A stretch of 64,000 nt of DNA from Escherichia coli 042. GTDB lineage: Bacteria > Pseudomonadota > Gammaproteobacteria > Enterobacterales > Enterobacteriaceae. Below the pieces are notes generated by a model. It was not told the DNA's origin and made no database searches. It saw nothing but the letters and a program-made list of their open reading frames with translations. Positions 42,147 to 49,402 of this stretch are shown one piece after another; position 1 is the first letter of the stretch, and each line of letters starts with the position of its first letter. The translations under genes and the position numbers were made by a program. Where the stretch lies: NCBI RefSeq assembly GCF_000027125.1, contig NC_017626.1. The stretch is one strand, 5' to 3'.

Positions 42147-44534
42147 TTATCCAATACGTGCTCGTGCGCGTTCCTGTTCACGGATCTGCGCCTGAATTTG
42201 TGTATAAAGCTGCGCCTGTTCATTATCGCGATCGGTCGCGGTCACGACCAGTGCGTAAGGCTCCTGCTCGCTGCTGAATGCTTCGCCCCAGTCTCTGTCC
42301 TGACGGGTAACAACAATAAACCATTTTTCATCCGGGTTACGCTGGCGAAAAGTCCAAATCGACGACTGTACCGTCCCGCGTTCCCGCTGTTGGGCTGATA
42401 CAACACGGTTAGTCTGGGCATCATCGGAGCGGGTTTCCGTCTCACTCTGCGTCTGGTGATTAAAACTGGCCTGCACTTCATCCAGCGAGCGGCCCTTAAC
42501 CAGCCGGAAACCGATCCGTGTGGCAGTATAATCCAGCCGGGTGGTACGCACGGCGGGTGAATATGCCAGCGTAACGCGGACTTCACGGGTTGCACGCTGC
42601 GATCGTAAAAAAGAAGCCGGGAAGGGCAGTTCAAAAAATTGGTGCGCGTTATTTTCTATCTGCTCTTCACATCGCATGACCACCACATTTTCAGAAGAAC
42701 GATATAACGCATCTTCATCAATGATGCCGTAGCCTGTCACGTCGCGCTCAATCTCCCGGTTTCTCGTTGCAGGCGCATTTCTATAGCTTTCTCTCATGGC
42801 CTGCGGAAAAGCCTGCGTCATCTCCTGAGAAACAGAAGCATGATTGACCAGCATTGCCCGCAGCATATTGGCAGACATTTCCGGGTATTCATTTAGCAGT
42901 CGACCCGCCAGATGTGTGATATACGGCGCGGCAAAGCTGGTGCCGCTGAGTTCTTTAAACAGCGTATTACCCTGAAACTGGTGATGGCAGCTTAATACGC
43001 CCAGACCGCGCATATGTGCCTGCCATTGCCCTTGCCGAACGTTGGAAGCGACATTGCCACCGTGCGCTACAACGTCAGGTTTAAACGCGCCTTTTACCGA
43101 CGGGCCGTGTCGGGTAAAAGGCGACGGTTGGTTTTCCGTTGCCGGGCTGAGATGCTGAATATCGCCAGGCCTACGCTGCGCATCCAACGTTGCGTTATGT
43201 CTGGCGACGCTGCCCACTGTCAGTACGTTCAGCGCCGGAGCCGGATCGATGATTACGCTGTCCTCATGCAACAGGTAGTCAGGATATTCATCCCGCCAGC
43301 TATTTTGCGGCACCGGAGGATCGTCGCTGCCTGCGAAATTCCCCGCAGAGACGACAAACAGTACATTATATTGCCGCGCCAGCGTATCTAACAGATACGC
43401 CATACCGCGAATATGTTTGCCGTCATAGGGCGCATTAGCATTCCCCAGCGACAGATTGAAAATGCGGCAACCGAGATCGGTAAAATACGCGACGGCGGCT
43501 GTTAGTGTGCTTTCAATCGTTTCGGCATTGAATTCAGCCCGCTCGTTCAGTACTTTCCCGTTATACAGCCATAGCTGCGGCTGCCAGAAATTGCTCTGGT
43601 TACAGGCTTCAACGTCGCCATACAGAGCAATACTCGCTACGGCGGTGCCATGCCCCTCTTGATCAAACGCATCCTGATTGGGAATAAAGCTGGCGCTTTC
43701 AGCAATGGCGGCACTTAACAGAGGGTGATTGGTGTTGATGCCGCTATCCAGAATACAGACTCTGGCCGCATTTACCGCAGGCGAAATCAGATGCTCTGGA
43801 AGTGTATTGATGTCCCGGTTAATTTGTTGATAGCTAATGCCGCTGGACGGTGGCAAATCAACCAACCTGACGTCCCGATGCGCTAACAGGTATTCTGCTT
43901 GCGCGAGCGAAACCTCTATCCGGTACATCAACAGGCTGTCCAGATTGACTTTATCCCGCCAGAGAATCCCCTGCTCTCTGAGCCAATTTTCAAAACGGGT
44001 ATACAGGTCGATACGTCTGGGGTGATGCGCCACATCGACTGGCCAGAGCTCCACATCCAGATTAAAGCGTTCCGCTACAGGAAAACCATAGCGCCGGAGT
44101 GCCCAGCTTTTACGATCTTCCGCCGACCAGCCGTCAATGCCGTCAAGCGCTTCGAGAATATTCCTGTAGGTTAGGTCCGTACGGGGAAGCCCCAGTTGCG
44201 CCAGATGGGTTTCGAAGGTTGTCAGACCCTGCTCATTAGTGAAAACGATACAGACCTGTTTACCTTCCTGACTGATGAACTCCACGCCGTGATGTATCAA
44301 TGCTGAAAAATTCATTGTGCCGCTGTAGTTCAGCTTGAGGATATAGCGCCCGTCATCGGCGCTGCCGGGTACTTGTGCCAGCGTTGGGCGCAAGGTATGG
44401 AGTTGCGTCAACAGCATTTGCCCGTGCTGGCGTAAATCGCCCCTGCGAATACGGGGCATATTGACTCTGCGGGTCCGTCGGTCGTTTTGAAGTGGTGCTT
44501 TGGTAATCGTTAGATGCTGATAATTCGCCGTCAT
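42147..44534 (-). CDS. S8-family subtilisin-like serine peptidase (IetS-like)
   Basis: 795-aa product with catalytic-triad motifs in D-H-S order (CILDSGINTNHP, EGHGTAVASIA, SGTSFAAPYITH); 9-nt gap to the upstream AAA ATPase gene. Confidence 0.85.
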   Translation of the reverse strand: MTANYQHLTITKAPLQNDRRTRRVNMPRIRRGDLRQHGQMLLTQLHTLRPTLAQVPGSADDGRYILKLNYSGTMNFSALIHHGVEFISQEGKQVCIVFTNEQGLTTFETHLAQLGLPRTDLTYRNILEALDGIDGWSAEDRKSWALRRYGFPVAERFNLDVELWPVDVAHHPRRIDLYTRFENWLREQGILWRDKVNLDSLLMYRIEVSLAQAEYLLAHRDVRLVDLPPSSGISYQQINRDINTLPEHLISPAVNAARVCILDSGINTNHPLLSAAIAESASFIPNQDAFDQEGHGTAVASIALYGDVEACNQSNFWQPQLWLYNGKVLNERAEFNAETIESTLTAAVAYFTDLGCRIFNLSLGNANAPYDGKHIRGMAYLLDTLARQYNVLFVVSAGNFAGSDDPPVPQNSWRDEYPDYLLHEDSVIIDPAPALNVLTVGSVARHNATLDAQRRPGDIQHLSPATENQPSPFTRHGPSVKGAFKPDVVAHGGNVASNVRQGQWQAHMRGLGVLSCHHQFQGNTLFKELSGTSFAAPYITHLAGRLLNEYPEMSANMLRAMLVNHASVSQEMTQAFPQAMRESYRNAPATRNREIERDVTGYGIIDEDALYRSSENVVVMRCEEQIENNAHQFFELPFPASFLRSQRATREVRVTLAYSPAVRTTRLDYTATRIGFRLVKGRSLDEVQASFNHQTQSETETRSDDAQTNRVVSAQQRERGTVQSSIWTFRQRNPDEKWFIVVTRQDRDWGEAFSSEQEPYALVVTATDRDNEQAQLYTQIQAQIREQERARARIG

Positions 44535-44543
44535 GGCAGTCCC

Positions 44544-45524
44544 TTATCGGTGGGTTCTGGCGTTTTCTCGCTGAGTTGCGTTTTTTAAATCTTTTAGCGT
44601 CAGGAATTCCTGATGACGCAGGATCATATGCTTGGTTGCCCGACGGACAATGCGCTCAATATCTGCACCGCTTTTCCCGAGCAGCAGGGATAATAGCTCG
44701 CTATCGTCCAGCTCAAACTGACGGCGGGTGCCGCGTAATTTTAACGCCAACAGCTCACGTAACTGCGCCTGATCCGGCAACGGAAATTCAATCACTTCAT
44801 CAAATCGACGCCAGATGGCGCTGTCCAGAATGTGTTCATGGTTAGTGGCCGCCAGAATCAGGCTTTTACCCTGATAAGCATCCATCATTTGTAAAACGGC
44901 ATTGACGACCCGGCGTAATTCACCGTGTTCGCCGCTGTCGCCACGCTCTTTTCCTATGGCATCAAACTCATCGAACAACACCACCATTGGGTGCTCTGCA
45001 ATAAAATCGAAAATTTTACGCAGATTGGCGGCGGTTTCTCCCAAAAACGAAGACACCAGTACGTCGAGGCGGACAATTGCCAGCGGCATGTCCAGTTCAA
45101 AAGCGATAACCTCTGCTGTCAGCGTTTTACCGCAGCCCGGCGGTCCGAAAAACATGATCTTACTGGCTGCTTTCATCCCGTAGCTATGCAATACATCGCT
45201 ACGCCGGTGCTCTTCAAGGAGTTCATCAATCACTGTAGCGCTGGTCGCCGGGAGGATCATTTCATCAAGGCTGCGCTGTGGCTGCCGGAGATCCAGCAAC
45301 GGCAGGCCCCTTTCTTTATCTATCGGTGCTTGAGGAAGCGCAGGCGAGCGCGAAGCCTGAACAAGACGATCGCCGTAAAGAATATGCTCCAGATCGTTAG
45401 CCAGAAGGTGGTGCTGTTTCTGACGTTCCTCATCAATAATGGCTTCCGAAACACGACGGAAAGTAGCGGTATCACCCGTTGCGCCCGCTTTTATTAGTTG
45501 CCTTAATATCTTACCGTTAGCCAT
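44544..45524 (-). CDS. AAA-family ATPase (IetA-like)
   Basis: Walker A GPPGCGKT and Walker B VVLFDEFDA. ATG at 45524 has an AGGAG RBS; the ORF track extends to GTG 45548. Confidence 0.85.
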   Translation of the reverse strand: MANGKILRQLIKAGATGDTATFRRVSEAIIDEERQKQHHLLANDLEHILYGDRLVQASRSPALPQAPIDKERGLPLLDLRQPQRSLDEMILPATSATVIDELLEEHRRSDVLHSYGMKAASKIMFFGPPGCGKTLTAEVIAFELDMPLAIVRLDVLVSSFLGETAANLRKIFDFIAEHPMVVLFDEFDAIGKERGDSGEHGELRRVVNAVLQMMDAYQGKSLILAATNHEHILDSAIWRRFDEVIEFPLPDQAQLRELLALKLRGTRRQFELDDSELLSLLLGKSGADIERIVRRATKHMILRHQEFLTLKDLKNATQRENARTHR

Positions 45525-45549
45525 TATTGACTCCTGAAACCACAGCACT

Positions 45550-48416
45550 TCATGCGGAAGGTGAACTCAACGTCCAGCTCACCGCGAATAATTGACGGGA
45601 CGTTATTTCCGTCGCCAGCTTTTGCTCGACCTCTTCCAGCAGACGGTCCTCTTCCTGCTCGATTTTTTTCTTTTCATCATGATACTGCAACATGATGCTA
45701 TCCCGCTCGCGTTCCAGCACCTTTAATGCGCGCTTGGCTTCCATTTTCTCTTTTAGAGAAGGAAGCTGACGGGCGGCTTTACGCGCCTCTTTAATTTCTG
45801 CATCTAACTGTTTGATACGTAAGTCCAGCGCGATACGTCGATCTTCTGACCAGCGTTCAAGTTTTTCTACTTCTTCATTGTAATAAAGTTCGTTATCGCG
45901 TTCGACCTGTTGGATAAAAGAATGCCGTAAAACCTCACATTGTGTTGTTAACGCAGGCAGCAAAGGCTGTTCTTCGACAGATGTTATCTCTGATAATGGC
46001 AGGCGAAGCAGACGGGATACGGTTTCCTCTGCCAGCACTTCGCCATTTTCTGTAACAGCGACGGTCAATAGTTTCTCTCGCTGTTGCTCCTGATTTCCGA
46101 TGCTGACTTTTGCCAGCAACAGCTGTCCCGATTTCCCGCAGAACAGTTTAACATCGGCCAGTTGTCCGCTTCTGGGTTGGTAGATGAAATGGAGCTTCTG
46201 GCAAACTGGGGATGTGGAAAGGCTTGCCCCTTCATGCAGGGCAGCATCAATCAGTTGCTTCCCATATCCCTGGCTGGGCCGGAAGAATTCGGCATCTTTT
46301 TCATCCGCAATGGGCCAGTTGACGTCAAAATACTTTCCTCTGGAACGAAAACCCGTCTCAGAACGTTGAAAATCGCTCTCGTCGCTCAGAAACATTTCCG
46401 CCAGCAGCAACAGATTTTCCTGGTAATCGTTTAACTGCGCGAGGGTGGTTGTACGTCGGGTTTTCAGATTGCGGACCACATCAACGTCAAAATGCTCGAA
46501 TAATGAACGCCGGGTTTCATTCTCCCGATTTTCCAGTTGATCTTTGAGTTCATCCTGCAGCTGATTAAATTCCTGTTCAATTTGTTCATCGGAGCGGCAG
46601 TGCTGGTATATCTCATGAATACGTCGTTCAATATCAACACCTGATTCGATCGACCCCAGAATGTCATCGGATGCGCCAAACACCCCTTCAAAAAGCTGGA
46701 ACTTCTGGCTCAATAATTCAAACACGCGCTGATCGGCACGGTTGCCTTTATTAATAAAATTAACCACCACGACATCGTGTTTTTGTCCATAGCGGTGAAC
46801 ACGCCCGATACGTTGCTCCACGCGCTGCGGATTCCACGGTAAATCATAATTGATTAACAGCGAACAAAACTGGAGGTTGATACCTTCTGCGCCCGCTTCA
46901 GTACAAATCATCAGGGTGCCTTCGTCCCTGAATTTTTCAACCAGCGCTGCCTTCATATCCGCCGTACTCGAACCGGAAACCCGGCCAGAGTTCTGATGTT
47001 TCTCCAGCCAGTCGCTGTAAATCTTCTTCGACACCGCATCGCTATTGCTGCCATTGAGCAGAACCACTTCTCCCTCGTAGCCACTTTCTGACAACAGTTG
47101 CGCCAGCCAGGTCTGGGTGCGTACGGACTCGGTAAAAATGACCGCCTTACGTAATCCGCCCAGTTCAGCCGTAAAGGTAAAGGCCCGATCGAGAACGCGT
47201 AACAGTGCTTCGGCCTTGGCGTTTTTGGTAATCGATGCCGCTAAAGTCTTATAATTTTTTAACTGGTCAATTTCGGCCTGTAGCGCCTGAGGATCGATGG
47301 TATCTTCGTCATCAATGCCTTCTTCATCGCTGTAATCGTCGTAATTTTCATAATCCGTCAGCGCATCCAGCACCGGCATTTTACTTTCAAGACGGTGGAT
47401 CATCGTTTCCAGCGTTCCCTGGATCGCTGTAGACGATGAGGCCAGAATTTTACGAATGACTAACGTTACTAGGTGACGCGCGCCGCTTTTGATCGCCAGT
47501 AGATCGTCCCGCTGCAAATAAGAGGAAACCTGTTTATAGAGCACTTCTTCGTCTTCCGTCGGACGAAAGTCTTCGGTTATTGAATGGCGTCGGGTAAAAC
47601 TGATCCCGCCTTCCTGCTGAACCTGTCGACGAAGCGTTCGATTACAGATTTTATTCAGACGAACCCTTAATAATGCCAGTTCTGCATCGTCAATATTCTG
47701 TCGGGAATAACGGGCCTTGAACGAAGCAAGGTCGCCGAAAAAATGAGGATCAATCACGGAAATCAGGCCGTAAAGCTCAAGAATACTGTTTTGTAGCGGC
47801 GTGGCGGAAAGCAGTATTTTTTTTCTGCCGGACAGTGCGCCACTGAGTTTTTTGGCTGTTTTAGCGCCATCGTTCTTGTAGATATTACGCAGTTTATGCG
47901 CCTCATCCATGACGACCAGATCCCACGGGATTCGTGCCAGCTCGTGCTCTTTACGGGCAGCGAATTCGTATGAACAAATGCAGATCGCCGCTTTCCCGGT
48001 TGCATTTTCAATATCAAAGGGATTATCGCTCCCCTCTTTAACCATTTGATTGAAGATCTTCGCTTCAATAATTTGTGAAGGCAGCGAAAATTTCTCTTCC
48101 AGCTCCTGGCTCCACTGCTTGCGTAGCGTTGCGGGTGCAATCAGCAACAGTTTTCGGCGGCGTTCAGCCCATTTTGCGCCAAAATCAGGCTGGCCTCAAT
48201 AGTTTTCCCCAGTCCCACTTCATCGGCCAGGATCACGCCATTCGACAGGGGAGATGCCAGCGCAAACATCGCAGCCTCTACCTGATGAGGATTCATATCA
48301 ACCCGTGCGCTGGCAATAGTTTGCGTCAGCGAGTCCTCGGCTTTGCCGCTTAACGTCAACCAGTGGGCCAGATAACTACGTTGGTGATCTGAATACATTT
48401 TCATACCTTTGTGCAA
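45550..48416 (-). pseudogene. SNF2-family helicase-like protein with C-terminal coiled coil, split by a frameshift at a T4/A4 tract
   Basis: N-terminal 91-aa ORF carries motif I (ADEVGLGKTIEAS); the 865-aa ORF carries DEAH (VVMDEAHKLRN) and helicase C motifs (QRIGRVHRYGQ). The downstream frame reads KWAERRRKLLLIAPATL upstream of its ORF-track start, so the frames join at about 48160-48166. Confidence 0.78.
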
Positions 48417-48698
48417 AGAGGGGGAGGGGAGCGCGACCGTATTTTACTGATATATGAACCGGGTTGCTAATCTGGAAGATGGCTCGCATTACATCCCCTT
48501 GTCGTTCACCGGGCTTCGCGGTCTCTTTTCCTCGCGTCTGCAAAATCAGGCGCCGGGCTTGACCTCCTGAACACTCCTTAGTGACGACACAATGGCGCGC
48601 TCGCGCCTTTTTTGTGCCGGTGCTCGGCTACACCTCAATGGCGGACCGGGCGGGGGCGTCGCAAGGCGCGCTGGATGGACTGTTCTGAGGAGGCAGGA

Positions 48699-49402
48699 AT
48701 GAGACGATTACCGCTGATGGTGGGCGTGATAGTGGGCGTAATGCTGGCTGTCGGCTGCCATGACCGTAGGGCTGGTGTGAGGACGCTGCTGGGCGATGGC
48801 GTGGAGCAATGGGGGCAGAAGTTGCCTTACGACCACTGGGAATTCAATTTTTTTACCCGAAAAATCTGCCGGCACTGGTGACAATGGTGTATCTGGAGGA
48901 CGGGGATATCCGGGAGAGCTTTTTCCGGCGACTGGATCCGACTGAACCCAGTCAGAGCAGTGTGGGAAAATGGAGCCAGCACGTAGGCGGTTTTTTAGCC
49001 AGTTTTAATATTGGCAAGGCGCTGCCTGTCAGGATGACGGTATGCTGGGACTCAGTTATCGATAAAAAGGCGTATGAGACGGAGATCTGGTTCAGCCGGG
49101 ATACGTGGCAGCAGATGCTGACTGCCTATCCTGATACTTATCGTCCGGGAAAAATATATTACCGAAACAAAATGATTATTGGCCTGCCCCCCGGTGGTAA
49201 AGTCAGGGTATGGTTAAAAGACAATCGTAATCCTGTTGTACTCCAGAATCCTGCCCGACAGTTCACCCTGACGGGAGATGATATGCTGATATGCAAAAAT
49301 GTTCCCAACAAGATTGATTTCAGTTACATCAAGGCTAACGGTTACGATCCATTTATCCGCGATTTTATCAAGGAAAAGCCCTATCCGTATGGTCACTGGT
49401 AG
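48699..49402 (+). pseudogene. Putative lipoprotein, frameshifted at a T7 tract
   Basis: ATG 48699 with a GAGGAGG RBS; signal peptide and lipobox (MRRLPLMVGVIVGVMLAVGC). The frame terminates shortly after a T7 run (48848-48854) and continues in another frame to 49402 (197-aa ORF). Confidence 0.5.

What the first reader, a model, noticed from the sequence alone, without database searches (positions are those of the whole stretch)
42147..45524. AAA ATPase plus S8 subtilase gene pair (IetAS-like candidate anti-phage module)
A 326-334-aa AAA ATPase (GPPGCGKT, DEFD) is followed after 9 nt by a 795-aa subtilisin-like peptidase with an intact D-H-S triad. The N-terminal 200 aa of the peptidase and the N-terminal 120 aa of the ATPase have no obvious motif and could be sensor or regulatory domains. 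From memory this architecture matches the IetA/IetS pair reported as an anti-phage system; the mechanism of such pairs is, as far as I know, unresolved.
Basis: partly seen in the sequence, partly recalled or inferred. Interest (0 to 1): 0.6.

Follow-up and report, generated by a model that had tools for sequence, protein, structure and literature searches.

The report
IetAS defence pair inside restriction operon
This is a real but already described bacterial anti-virus module, in which an ATPase restrains a toxic protease; here it sits as an inserted cassette inside a helicase-plus-restriction-enzyme operon on an E. coli pathogenicity island.

Summary
On the minus strand, a 326-aa AAA+ ATPase gene (44544-45524) is followed after 9 nt by a 795-aa S8 subtilase gene (42147-44534), and all catalytic motifs are intact. 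The IetAS reading is supported: the PADLOC IetA profile scores 350 bits and the IetS profile 1206 bits over its full length. The pair falls below NCBI's narrower IteA/IteS equivalog cut-offs, so it belongs to a different subfamily. The window is E. coli; 73 of 5426 complete genomes carry the pair.

The pair is not free-standing. It lies in a five-gene operon: SNF2 helicase, IetA, IetS, Type III Mod, Type III Res. The helicase-IetA-IetS trio matches the "ietHAS" variant tested in 2026, with the same K65 and D165 positions. In 11 of 11 sampled helicase homologues outside Enterobacterales, helicase, Mod and Res travel together, with other cassettes or none in the IetAS slot (HEC-01, AIPR/VapC, Abi family). 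Closely related IetAS pairs also stand alone elsewhere. So IetAS is an embedded abortive-infection cassette.

In this window the helicase and mod genes each carry a private 1-nt frameshift.

A structure model shows subtilase-propeptide-like domains at the IetS N-terminus. The mechanism remains unsolved.

Verdict: already known, modest interest.

The parts
44544..45524 (-). ietA: 326-aa classic-clade AAA+ ATPase, the antitoxin/regulator. An alternative GTG start at 45548 would give 334 aa.
   Evidence: ORF. PADLOC IetA 350 bits. Pfam AAA. Shine-Dalgarno before ATG 45524. Walker A/B, pore loop, sensor-1 and arginine finger are conserved in 11 orthologues. Nearest solved structures are the p97/Cdc48 D2 domain.
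42147..44534 (-). ietS: 795-aa cytoplasmic S8 subtilase, the toxin/effector. Modelled layout: N-terminal Arg-rich disordered segment (17-31), two ferredoxin/propeptide-like units (64-112 and 130-226), linker with the DLPP motif (227-257), S8 domain (258-600), beta-sandwich (617-768) and terminal helix (776-794).
45550..48398 (-). SNF2-family helicase gene (DrmD-like; 'ietH' of ietHAS). It is broken in this window by a 1-nt deletion (A5 to A4) near 48171, which leaves a 91-aa ORF (TTG start; 85 aa from the RefSeq start) and an 865-aa ORF. It is intact (949 aa) in 65 near-identical genomes.
   Evidence: ORFs. PADLOC DrmD PDLC02619 594 bits. Alignment to E24377A. GLGKT lysine at position 65 and DEAH aspartate at 165. 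The frameshift is absent elsewhere.
40510..42137 (-). Type III Mod methyltransferase gene (beta-class N6/N4; DPPY motif before FxGxG). It is broken in this window by a 1-nt deletion (GG to G) near 41415, which leaves 247-aa and 302-aa ORFs. It is intact (542 aa) in relatives.
   Evidence: ORFs. PADLOC MTase_III PDLC03636: 398 bits (N-terminal ORF) and 551 bits (C-terminal ORF), together spanning profile positions 1-575. Alignment. The frameshift is absent elsewhere.
37637..40507 (-). Type III Res subunit (SF2 helicase plus a C-terminal PD...E-x-K nuclease motif, EPDF...IEPKK).
   Evidence: ORF. PADLOC REase_III PDLC03648 2117 bits over the full profile. The nuclease motif was read directly from the translation.
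37255..37548 (-). 97-aa hypothetical ORF with a hydrophobic C-terminus, downstream of res. Whether it belongs to the operon is uncertain.
   Evidence: ORF. Annotated as hypothetical in E24377A and O104:H4. Only about 62% conserved in the 86% variant. No PADLOC hit.
48441..48470 (-). Promoter-like site about 45 nt upstream of the helicase start; a candidate operon promoter.
   Evidence: Consensus scan. The number of sites in the region is not above the shuffled expectation, so this is only a positional hint.
51382..52917 (-). Island boundary: P4-type tyrosine integrase (51382-52644) and tRNA-Phe (52842-52917).
   Evidence: ORF. ARAGORN. RefSeq annotation of identical loci.

Best explanation
The two genes are an IetAS toxin-antitoxin-type abortive-infection module.

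Effector. IetS is a cytoplasmic subtilase whose unrestrained activity kills or arrests the cell.

Regulator. IetA is a Cdc48/p97-like, substrate-threading AAA+ ATPase that keeps IetS harmless until infection.

Genomic setting. In this lineage the pair is not autonomous. It is a cassette inserted between an SNF2 helicase gene and the Mod-Res genes of a Type III-like restriction-modification operon. All five genes are co-directional and tightly spaced (gaps of 2-25 nt), probably transcribed from one promoter upstream of the helicase. The helicase-IetA-IetS trio corresponds to the 'ietHAS' variant, in which the helicase ATPase is reported to be required for defence against T7 and for keeping the system non-toxic.

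Shown here:
- family membership of both proteins
- intact catalytic machinery
- the operon layout
- co-inheritance of helicase, Mod and Res with a variable slot between helicase and Mod
- stand-alone occurrence of close IetAS relatives
- propeptide-like N-terminal folds in IetS

Taken from the literature:
- IetS is toxic and IetA neutralises it (pTiC58, SGI1, Mycoplasma)
- abortive infection triggered by a phage protein (B. cereus ietAS and SPbeta yosG)
- dependence on the helicase (Liu-DS4)

Inferred:
- IetA acts on IetS by ATP-driven remodelling or threading through its pore loop.
- The covalent propeptide-like domains participate in latency.
- A phage cue, sensed directly or through the helicase, breaks this restraint, so the protease cleaves host or phage proteins and stops the infection.
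- Restriction acts as the first line and IetAS as the suicidal back-up.
For: Family membership. PADLOC IetA scores 350 bits and IetS 1206 bits over the full length. The full-length IetS architecture is conserved down to about 29% identity, with 510 clusters at E<=1e-30. Homologues at about 28-33% identity lie on Rhizobium/Agrobacterium plasmids and on pNGR234a.

Enzyme competence. IetS has an invariant D263/H295/N399/S533. IetA has Walker A/B, a conserved aromatic pore loop, sensor-1 and an arginine finger. Its nearest solved structures are the p97/Cdc48 D2 domain, E=1e-57.

Operon. The five co-directional genes are seen in E24377A, in O104:H4 and in an 86% variant at a different tRNA (leuX). 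They are also seen in Providencia and multi-species Enterobacteriaceae.

ietHAS match. The helicase has its GLGKT lysine at position 65 and its DEAH aspartate at 165. These are the residues mutated as K65A and D165A in Liu-DS4, where ietH is described as SNF2/DrmD-like and was mined from E. coli.

Embedding. All 11 sampled helicase homologues outside Enterobacterales (37-72% identity) have Mod-Res downstream. The slot holds other cassettes or none:
- HEC-01A/B
- SLFN_AlbA_2+HATPase_c_4 (three loci)
- AIPR+HTH+VapC
- IS256 plus an Abi-family gene
- unknown ORFs
- a second Mod
In the seven of these loci that were scored, helicase, Mod and Res identities co-vary. IetAS pairs with IetA 72-80% and IetS 62-69% identity stand alone in Dickeya, Klebsiella/Cronobacter, the V. 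cholerae SXT element, Pseudomonas and Marinobacterium. A distant frame (helicase 43%, Res 44%) again holds IetAS (L006).

Literature. RM III and ietAS co-localise non-randomly in E. coli. Embedding of defence genes in multi-gene systems is a described phenomenon. TA behaviour of homologues is documented. Abortive infection and a phage trigger are reported.

Against: - No experiment was done on this sequence. Identity to Liu-DS4 rests on matching residue numbers, domain description and source species, because the paper's supplement is not held.
- The pair scores below NCBIfam's IteA/IteS equivalog cut-offs.
- Close IetAS relatives work or exist without any helicase, so helicase dependence may be lineage-specific.
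- Embedded and stand-alone IetA proteins show no systematic indel differences that would mark a helicase-binding adaptation.
- In this window the helicase and mod are frameshifted. If these are real, the locus is not in the configuration described, and an ietH-null with intact ietAS conflicts with the reported toxicity of ietH mutants.
- The propeptide-like fold assignment has a modest Z and 7-14% identity, and ferredoxin-like folds are common.
- The substrate of IetS and the way IetA restrains it are unknown. No orthologue has a solved structure.
Confidence: 0.75

Rival explanations
1. Integrated five-gene 'guard' system. IetAS monitors the SNF2-Mod-Res machine rather than the phage directly. 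When a phage anti-restriction factor, or any loss of helicase activity, disables the restriction complex, IetA's hold on IetS is released and the cell aborts. This would be analogous to PrrC held latent by the EcoprrI Type I enzyme and released by T4 Stp (the PrrC case is from my own knowledge).
For: The five genes are kept in the same order across Enterobacterales and in a very divergent frame. The slot in other frames holds other suicide-type modules: HEC-01, AIPR, VapC and Abi family. ietH ATPase mutants are reported to be cytotoxic and non-protective, which is what a guard model predicts. RM III and ietAS co-localise non-randomly.
Against: Close IetAS relatives stand alone. B. cereus ietAS is triggered by a specific phage protein without any such frame. 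Liu et al. never mention type III restriction (0 occurrences in the main text), so ietHAS defence was presumably obtained without Mod-Res. No interaction data exist. Embedding may only serve co-regulation or co-transfer.
Confidence: 0.25
2. The pair is mainly an addiction (post-segregational stabilisation) module that keeps the pheV/leuX island in the chromosome, as IetAS does for pTiC58 and SgiAT for SGI1. Any defence effect is secondary.
For: Homologues were first characterised as plasmid- or island-stabilising TA systems. The locus sits on integrase-bearing islands at tRNA genes. Relatives sit on conjugative plasmids and an SXT element.
Against: Anti-phage activity is reported for several homologues, including the matching E. 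coli three-gene form. The position inside a restriction operon and among defence genes fits immunity. SgiAT itself gave no post-segregational killing from its own promoter. The two roles are not exclusive.
Confidence: 0.15
3. In this particular strain the operon is decaying. The helicase and mod frameshifts are real, restriction is lost, and ietAS is a remnant that may be poorly expressed through polarity or is on its way to loss.
For: Two 1-nt deletions are the only indels in 17.7 kb compared with O104:H4, and both hit frame genes. Neither is present in 65 near-identical complete genomes. The island is full of IS elements and pseudogenes.
Against: Both deletions are in short homopolymer runs (A5, G2), the typical sites of sequencing error. 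ietA and ietS are 100% identical to the intact loci. With only two events, their location is not statistically telling (about 6% by chance for both to fall in ietH or mod).
Confidence: 0.3
4. An ordinary housekeeping protease and chaperone pair unrelated to conflict systems.
For: AAA+ unfoldases and proteases commonly cooperate in protein quality control. RefSeq annotates the genes only as 'AAA family ATPase' and 'S8 family peptidase'.
Against: Only 73 of 5426 complete E. coli genomes carry the pair, always on islands. Housekeeping family models score far below their cut-offs. Defence profiles match over the full length.
Confidence: 0.01

Closest known systems
ietHAS (Liu-DS4), NAR 2026, PMC13069673
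   Same: The gene order is the same: an SNF2/DrmD-like helicase immediately upstream of IetA and IetS in E. coli. The helicase Walker A lysine at 65 and DEAH aspartate at 165 match the published K65A and D165A positions.
   Different: Sequence identity could not be checked because the supplement is not held. The paper treats three genes and never mentions the Type III Mod-Res genes that follow 9 nt downstream here. In this window the helicase is frameshifted.
IetAS anti-phage system (Gao et al. 2020; PADLOC/DefenseFinder IetA and IetS; NCBIfam IteA/IteS)
   Same: An AAA+ ATPase sits upstream of an S8 subtilase, and both match the PADLOC profiles. The protease is required for defence according to the literature.
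   Different: The pair is below the NCBIfam equivalog cut-offs. IetS is a 795-aa subfamily against a 747-aa model, and IetA is 326 aa against a 367-aa model. Here the pair is embedded in another operon.
pTiC58 IetA/IetS, SGI1 SgiA/SgiT and Mycoplasma TA132/133 toxin-antitoxin pairs
   Same: The same two protein families in the same order. The protease is toxic and the ATPase neutralises it. Homologues on Agrobacterium and Rhizobium plasmids align over nearly the full IetS length.
   Different: Identity to the alphaproteobacterial plasmid proteins is only about 28-31%. Those systems were studied for replicon stability, not phage defence. None has the helicase or the restriction frame.
Defence systems embedded in multi-gene systems (Payne et al. 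2024, bioRxiv 10.1101/2024.01.29.577857: Hma, BREX, DISARM, Type I RM; HEC candidates)
   Same: A conserved multi-gene frame has a variable, same-strand slot filled with Abi-like or toxin-like cassettes. HEC-01 itself occupies the slot in the Aeromonas frame.
   Different: The frame here is SNF2 plus Type III Mod-Res. That frame is not among those analysed in the paper's main text, which does not mention ietAS or SNF2. The helicase scores higher on DrmD (594 bits) than on HmaA (136 bits). It lacks the NOV_C nuclease domain reported for HmaA.
PrrC anticodon nuclease embedded in the EcoprrI Type I restriction locus (own knowledge)
   Same: A suicide effector is encoded inside a restriction-modification operon. 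This offers a precedent for a back-up that fires when restriction is disabled.
   Different: The effector (tRNA nuclease versus protease), regulator and restriction type all differ. Functional coupling is demonstrated for PrrC and only hypothesised here.
Class 1 DISARM (DrmD SNF2 helicase plus DrmMI methylase, DrmA, DrmB, DrmC)
   Same: The helicase's best profile is DrmD, and an adenine-type methyltransferase is present in the same operon.
   Different: The DrmD equivalog cut-off is not reached (587 vs 950). DrmA, DrmB and DrmC are absent. A Type III Res nuclease is present instead.

Membership tests
IetAS (PADLOC / Gao 2020 sense) | An AAA+ ATPase matching an IetA profile | tested here: met
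   PDLC02196 at 350 bits, E=4e-105, residues 10-330. Three further IetA models score 200-296 bits.
IetAS (PADLOC / Gao 2020 sense) | An S8 subtilase matching an IetS profile over its full length, not only the catalytic domain | tested here: met
   PDLC02198 at 1206 bits, residues 3-794 against profile positions 2-791 of 795. Seven further IetS models also match.
IetAS (PADLOC / Gao 2020 sense) | The two genes are adjacent and co-directional, with the ATPase first | tested here: met
   9-nt spacer on the minus strand. The same arrangement occurs in every homologous locus examined.
IetAS (PADLOC / Gao 2020 sense) | Intact catalytic residues in both proteins | tested here: met
   D263/H295/N399/S533 are invariant. 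Walker A/B, pore loop, sensor-1 and arginine finger are present.
IetAS (NCBIfam equivalogs IteA NF042959 / IteS NF042956) | Score at or above the curated whole-protein cut-off | tested here: not met
   IteA 267.5 against a cut-off of 510; IteS 150 against 900. These are homologues from a different subfamily, not NCBI 'equivalogs'.
IetAS (functional definition) | Protects against phage; the protease is toxic and the ATPase neutralises it | not testable with these tools
   Known only from papers on homologues.
ietHAS (Liu-DS4) | An SNF2/DrmD-like helicase gene immediately upstream of ietA in the same operon | tested here: met
   The helicase stop codon lies 25 nt before the ietA ATG. PADLOC DrmD scores 594 bits. 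The gene is intact (949 aa) in 65 genomes but frameshifted in this window.
ietHAS (Liu-DS4) | Walker A lysine at residue 65 and DEAH aspartate at residue 165 | tested here: met
   The GLGKT lysine is at 65 and the DEAH aspartate at 165 in the intact orthologue, matching K65A and D165A in the paper.
ietHAS (Liu-DS4) | Sequence identity to the cloned system | not testable with these tools
   No supplementary files are held.
Type III restriction-modification | A Mod methyltransferase of the Type III class | tested here: met
   PDLC03636 MTase_III is covered end to end by the two ORF halves (398 + 551 bits). The gene is 542 aa when intact. It is frameshifted in this window.
Type III restriction-modification | A Res subunit with an SF2 helicase domain and a PD-(D/E)xK nuclease | tested here: met
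   PDLC03648 REase_III at 2117 bits over the full profile. The EPDF...IEPKK motif is read from the translation. Cleavage activity was not tested.
Class 1 DISARM | DrmA, DrmB (DUF1998) and DrmC present with DrmD and DrmMI | tested here: not met
   Only a DrmD-like helicase is present, and it is below the equivalog cut-off (587 vs 950). The neighbours are IetA, IetS, Mod and Res.
Hma (helicase, methylase, ATPase) | An HmaA-type helicase (SNF2 plus NOV_C) with HmaB and HmaC | tested here: not met
   HmaA scores 136 bits, well below DrmD at 594. No HmaB or HmaC model appears among the listed hits for Mod or Res. NOV_C is reported for HmaA and is not among the Pfam domains of the helicase.
Housekeeping AAA proteases / unfoldases (FtsH, PAN, Cdc48, ClpX) | Score at the family cut-off | tested here: not met
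   Best score is 123 bits against cut-offs of 500-1008.

The most novel reading that the evidence does not exclude
The real unit is a widespread, unnamed class of Type III-like restriction systems that carry an SNF2 helicase as a third subunit and a dedicated slot between helicase and Mod. Suicide modules are plugged into this slot: IetAS, HEC-01, AIPR/VapC, Abi family and Schlafen-like ATPases. In this reading the helicase is the shared sensor. Its stalling or inhibition by phage counter-defence releases whichever cassette is installed. IetAS would then be a guard of restriction rather than an independent sensor, and 'ietH' would be a restriction subunit rather than an IetAS accessory.
Probability: 0.2. 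Interest if true: 0.6.

Novelty: already known. Interest (0 to 1): 0.3.

Why it matters
The pair itself adds nothing new. IetAS is in the standard defence catalogues, and a matching E. coli three-gene form has been tested.

What is useful is the context. The helicase that was recently named as an IetAS accessory is, by comparative genomics, a stable partner of a Type III-like Mod-Res pair. It keeps this partnership across Gamma- and Alphaproteobacteria and Deinococcus, with a swappable slot that holds many different suicide modules. This reframes how helicase dependence of IetAS should be interpreted. It also gives a concrete, testable route to the unsolved question of what triggers IetS. And it nominates the other slot occupants, such as the recurrent Schlafen-like ATPase and the unknown ORFs, as defence candidates.

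The propeptide-like domains fused to a cytoplasmic subtilase, paired with a Cdc48-like unfoldase, also suggest a specific latency mechanism worth structural study.

Tried and rejected
- DISARM was considered because the helicase's best profile is DrmD. It was rejected: the score is below the equivalog cut-off, and DrmA, DrmB and DrmC are absent.
- Hma was considered because HEC-01 (an 'Hma-embedded candidate') sits in the Aeromonas slot. It was rejected: the HmaA profile is weak, and there are no HmaB/HmaC hits and no NOV_C domain.
- A housekeeping protease/chaperone was rejected.
- The genome-contig scan with the IetS alignment was largely wasted.
- No solved structure of an orthologue was found, by sequence or by fold.
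- The founding paper (Yamamoto 2009, PMC2704731) and the supplement of PMC13069673 are not held. Direct comparison with pTiC58 IetAS and with Liu-DS4 was therefore not possible.
- The promoter/terminator scan gave no more sites than shuffled sequence, so the single-operon claim rests on spacing and strand only.
- I did not model IetA's N-terminal 110 residues, or an IetA-IetS complex.
- The first local MAFFT run timed out and was repeated with faster settings.

Full report
**1. Observation**

The minus strand carries an ORF at 44544-45548 and an ORF at 42147-44534 of 795 aa. The first is 334 aa from a GTG; an internal ATG at 45524 gives 326 aa. The ATG is preceded by AGGAG at a 6-nt distance and is the start used by RefSeq in identical genomes, so 326 aa is the likely product. 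Nine nucleotides separate the ATPase stop from the peptidase ATG.

Pfam finds AAA (PF00004) at residues 131-257 of the 334-aa form and Peptidase_S8 at 258-573. GPPGCGKT and DEFD are present. So are a pore-loop-1 motif SFLG, sensor-1 N228 and an RRFD arginine finger, all conserved in eleven orthologues.

In an alignment of 86 IetS homologues reaching down to 25% identity, D263, H295, N399 and S533 are invariant.

**2. Identity**

PADLOC's IetA model PDLC02196 scores 350 bits (E=4e-105). IetS model PDLC02198 scores 1206 bits and aligns residues 3-794 to profile positions 2-791 of 795. Several other IetA and IetS models also match.

NCBIfam's IteA_antiphage and IteS_antiphage are the best NCBIfam hits but fall below their curated cut-offs (267 vs 510; 150 vs 900). 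FtsH, PAN, Cdc48, ClpX and mycosin models are far lower still. The pair is therefore a member of the IetAS family in the broad (PADLOC) sense, but of a subfamily other than the one NCBI's equivalog models are built on.

The family is large. A full scan of 1.84 billion representatives gave 510 clusters at E<=1e-30, and the whole 795-aa architecture is retained down to about 29% identity. Homologues at about 28-33% identity sit on Rhizobium, Agrobacterium, Bradyrhizobium and Sinorhizobium plasmids, including pNGR234a. A newer Pfam release names the N-terminal domains Y4kK_N and Y4kK_2nd after the pNGR234a protein.

**3. Source and distribution**

The DNA is Escherichia coli. The 3.4-kb pair is found in 73 of 5426 complete genomes, always chromosomal. 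In 65 genomes identity is at least 99%, and in 8 it is about 86%.

The window matches the pheV island of O104:H4-type and E24377A-type strains. That island carries type VI secretion genes, the pic autotransporter, group II introns and many IS fragments, and it ends with a P4-type integrase and tRNA-Phe.

**4. The pair is part of a five-gene operon**

In E24377A and O104:H4 the order on one strand is as follows:
- SNF2-related protein (949 aa)
- AAA ATPase (326 aa)
- S8 peptidase (795 aa)
- site-specific DNA methyltransferase (542 aa)
- DEAD/DEAH helicase (956 aa)

The gaps between genes are 25, 9, 9 and 2 nt.

PADLOC calls the last two genes Type III Mod (PDLC03636) and Type III Res (PDLC03648, 2117 bits). 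The first gene is DrmD-like at 594 bits. Res ends with an EPDF...IEPKK nuclease motif.

The same five genes, at about 86% nucleotide identity, sit in a different island at tRNA-Leu. They also occur in Providencia and in a multi-species Enterobacteriaceae lineage. Within these, Mod is much more divergent (about 65%) than its neighbours (90-96%). This is what exchange of the target-recognition region would give.

**5. What the literature says**

IetAS was first described as a plasmid-stabilising toxin-antitoxin pair in which the protease is the toxin and the ATPase the antitoxin. Homologous pairs on SGI1 and in Mycoplasma behave the same way.

A B. cereus ietAS acts by abortive infection and is triggered by the SPbeta protein YosG. 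In E. coli, 'RM III and ietAS' are listed among the few defence pairs that co-localise non-randomly.

A 2026 paper describes 'ietHAS' (Liu-DS4), an E. coli ietAS with an added SNF2/DrmD-like helicase, ietH. In that system:
- K65A and D165A in ietH abolish protection against T7.
- The protease activity is required.
- ietA mutants could not be built.
- ietH mutants are cytotoxic on induction.
- The mechanism is stated to be unknown.

In the intact orthologue of the helicase here, the GLGKT lysine is residue 65 and the DEAH aspartate is residue 165. This is almost certainly the same system or a very close relative. I could not verify sequence identity because the supplement is not held. That paper never mentions type III restriction.

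**6. Whose partner is the helicase?**

I sampled helicase homologues outside Enterobacterales, at 37-72% identity. In 11 of 11 loci a Mod (sometimes two) and a Res follow downstream, and none contains IetAS. The slot between helicase and Mod holds the following:

| Host | Slot content |
|---|---|
| Aeromonas | HEC-01A/B |
| Methylobacter, a Neisseriaceae strain, Endozoicomonas | one SLFN_AlbA_2+HATPase_c_4 gene |
| Vibrio metschnikovii | unknown 252-aa ORF |
| Pantoea | two small ORFs |
| Shewanella | nothing but a second Mod |
| Deinococcus plasmid | AIPR + HTH + VapC |
| Sphingopyxis plasmid | 527-aa hypothetical |
| Salmonella IncFIB plasmid | IS256 + an Abi-family gene |
| Roseomonas plasmid | 1-kb stretch with no listed gene |

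In the seven of these loci that were scored against the E. coli proteins, helicase, Mod and Res identities rise and fall together: 63-72%, 55-75% and 61-69%.

Conversely, IetAS pairs with IetA 72-80% and IetS 62-69% identity to this one stand alone, without helicase, Mod or Res. They occur in Dickeya, Klebsiella/Cronobacter, a V. cholerae SXT element, Pseudomonas and Marinobacterium.

One distant frame, L006 (helicase 43%, Res 44%), again contains IetAS, at IetA 72% and IetS 60%, together with two extra ORFs. This suggests repeated capture of IetAS by such frames.

The simplest reading is that helicase+Mod+Res is a conserved Type III-like restriction frame with a variable slot, and that IetAS is one of many suicide-type cassettes embedded in it. 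[quoted passage not shown] This particular frame and its IetAS content are not discussed in that paper's main text.

**7. Mechanism**

IetA has every hallmark of a classic-clade, substrate-threading AAA+ unfoldase, and its nearest solved relatives are p97/Cdc48 D2 domains.

A full-length AlphaFold2 model of IetS is confident (pLDDT 89.5, pTM 0.86). It shows, in order:
- an Arg-rich disordered segment (17-31)
- a long helix
- two alpha/beta units (64-112 and 130-226)
- a linker carrying a near-invariant DLPP motif
- the S8 domain
- a beta-sandwich (617-768)
- a terminal helix

My working model is as follows, and the steps in it are inferred:
- IetS is a cytoplasmic pro-subtilase-like enzyme whose fused propeptide-like domains contribute to latency.
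- IetA hexamers use ATP to remodel or hold IetS inactive.
- A phage cue, either direct or relayed by the helicase, breaks this restraint.
- The protease then cleaves host or phage proteins and aborts infection, as a back-up to restriction.

The substrate, the trigger for this subfamily and the IetA-IetS interface are unknown. No orthologue has a solved structure.

**8. State of the locus in this window**

Relative to E24377A and O104:H4, the window has two single-base deletions. One shortens A5 to A4 near 48171 and splits the helicase gene after codon ~75. The other shortens GG to G near 41415 and splits mod. They are the only indels in 17.7 kb compared with O104:H4. Neither occurs in any of the 65 near-identical complete genomes.

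They may be homopolymer sequencing errors or private inactivating mutations; I cannot tell which. If real, restriction is lost, because Res needs Mod for DNA recognition (established Type III biology, from my own knowledge). An intact ietAS would then coexist with a broken ietH, which is hard to reconcile with the reported toxicity of ietH mutants.

**9. Verdict**

The feature is an already catalogued defence system whose matching three-gene form has been tested. The added value of this analysis is the demonstration that the pair, and the helicase recently attached to it, belong to a Type III-like restriction frame with an exchangeable slot, plus a structural hint about latency. Interest is modest (0.3). 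The more novel reading is that the helicase-RM frame acts as a shared sensor guarded by plug-in suicide cassettes. The evidence leaves this open, and I rate it about 0.2 likely.

Noticed in passing
window 48165-48175 and 41410-41420: Single-base deletions split the SNF2 helicase gene (A5 to A4) and the mod gene (GG to G). They are the only indels in 17.7 kb compared with O104:H4, and they are absent from all 65 near-identical complete E. coli genomes. They are either sequencing errors or private inactivation of the two frame genes while ietAS stays intact.
   Followed up: partly
window 40510-42137 vs L002 10285-11991, L003 10375-11991, L102 14259-15869 and L104 14263-15885: Among enterobacterial copies of the operon, Mod is only about 65% identical while helicase, IetA, IetS and Res are 88-96% identical. 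The N-terminal part of Mod is about 66% identical and the C-terminal part about 83%. This is the pattern expected from exchange of the target-recognition region, that is, changing restriction specificity.
   Followed up: partly
L093 11847-13118, L098 10383-11657, L100 10845-12086: A single gene encoding SLFN_AlbA_2 + HATPase_c_4 domains fills the helicase-Mod slot in three unrelated hosts (Methylobacter, a Neisseriaceae strain and Endozoicomonas). Its only PADLOC similarity is to Schlafen-type regions of pAgo-associated proteins. It could be a recurrent embedded defence candidate or an ancestral fourth subunit.
   Followed up: partly
L097 10823-11581; L111 10843-12426; L006 8001-8822 and 14024-14572; L099 10751-11512: ORFs of unknown function occupy the slot in other frames: 252 aa in V. 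metschnikovii, 527 aa on a Sphingopyxis plasmid, and two small ORFs in Pantoea. In L006 a 273-aa ORF sits beside IetAS and a 182-aa ORF sits between Mod and Res. None was characterised.
   Followed up: no
L088 8014-15055 (V. cholerae SXT-type element): A stand-alone IetAS pair lies directly next to a Gabija-like pair (OLD-type ATPase-TOPRIM plus a UvrD helicase), between recombination genes and traN. This looks like a defence hotspot of an integrative conjugative element.
   Followed up: no
window 42147-44534, IetS residues 17-31: An arginine-rich segment (RRTRRVNMPRIRRGD) is the only long low-confidence stretch of the model. H7 and several arginines around it are conserved across the family. 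It might be a degron, a nucleic-acid contact or the handle that IetA grips.
   Followed up: no
window 37255-37548: A 97-aa ORF with a hydrophobic C-terminal tail lies 88 nt downstream of res on the same strand. It is annotated as hypothetical, is poorly conserved in the 86% variant, and has no PADLOC hit.
   Followed up: partly
window 1-36900: The rest of the window is an EAEC/O104:H4-type pheV pathogenicity island. It carries type VI secretion genes, the pic serine-protease autotransporter, group II intron ltrA copies, and IS30, IS3, IS66, IS100 and IS110 fragments. It is collinear with O104:H4 2011C-3493 only in blocks, with a 761-nt offset and a stretch of about 1.5 kb of the reference, including an ltrA copy, missing near window 16370.
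   Followed up: partly
window 48809-49402: A DUF2931-family ORF (197 aa) on the plus strand lies immediately upstream of the operon. It is followed by a short replication-initiation remnant and an IS1 before the integrase. Its function is unknown.
   Followed up: no
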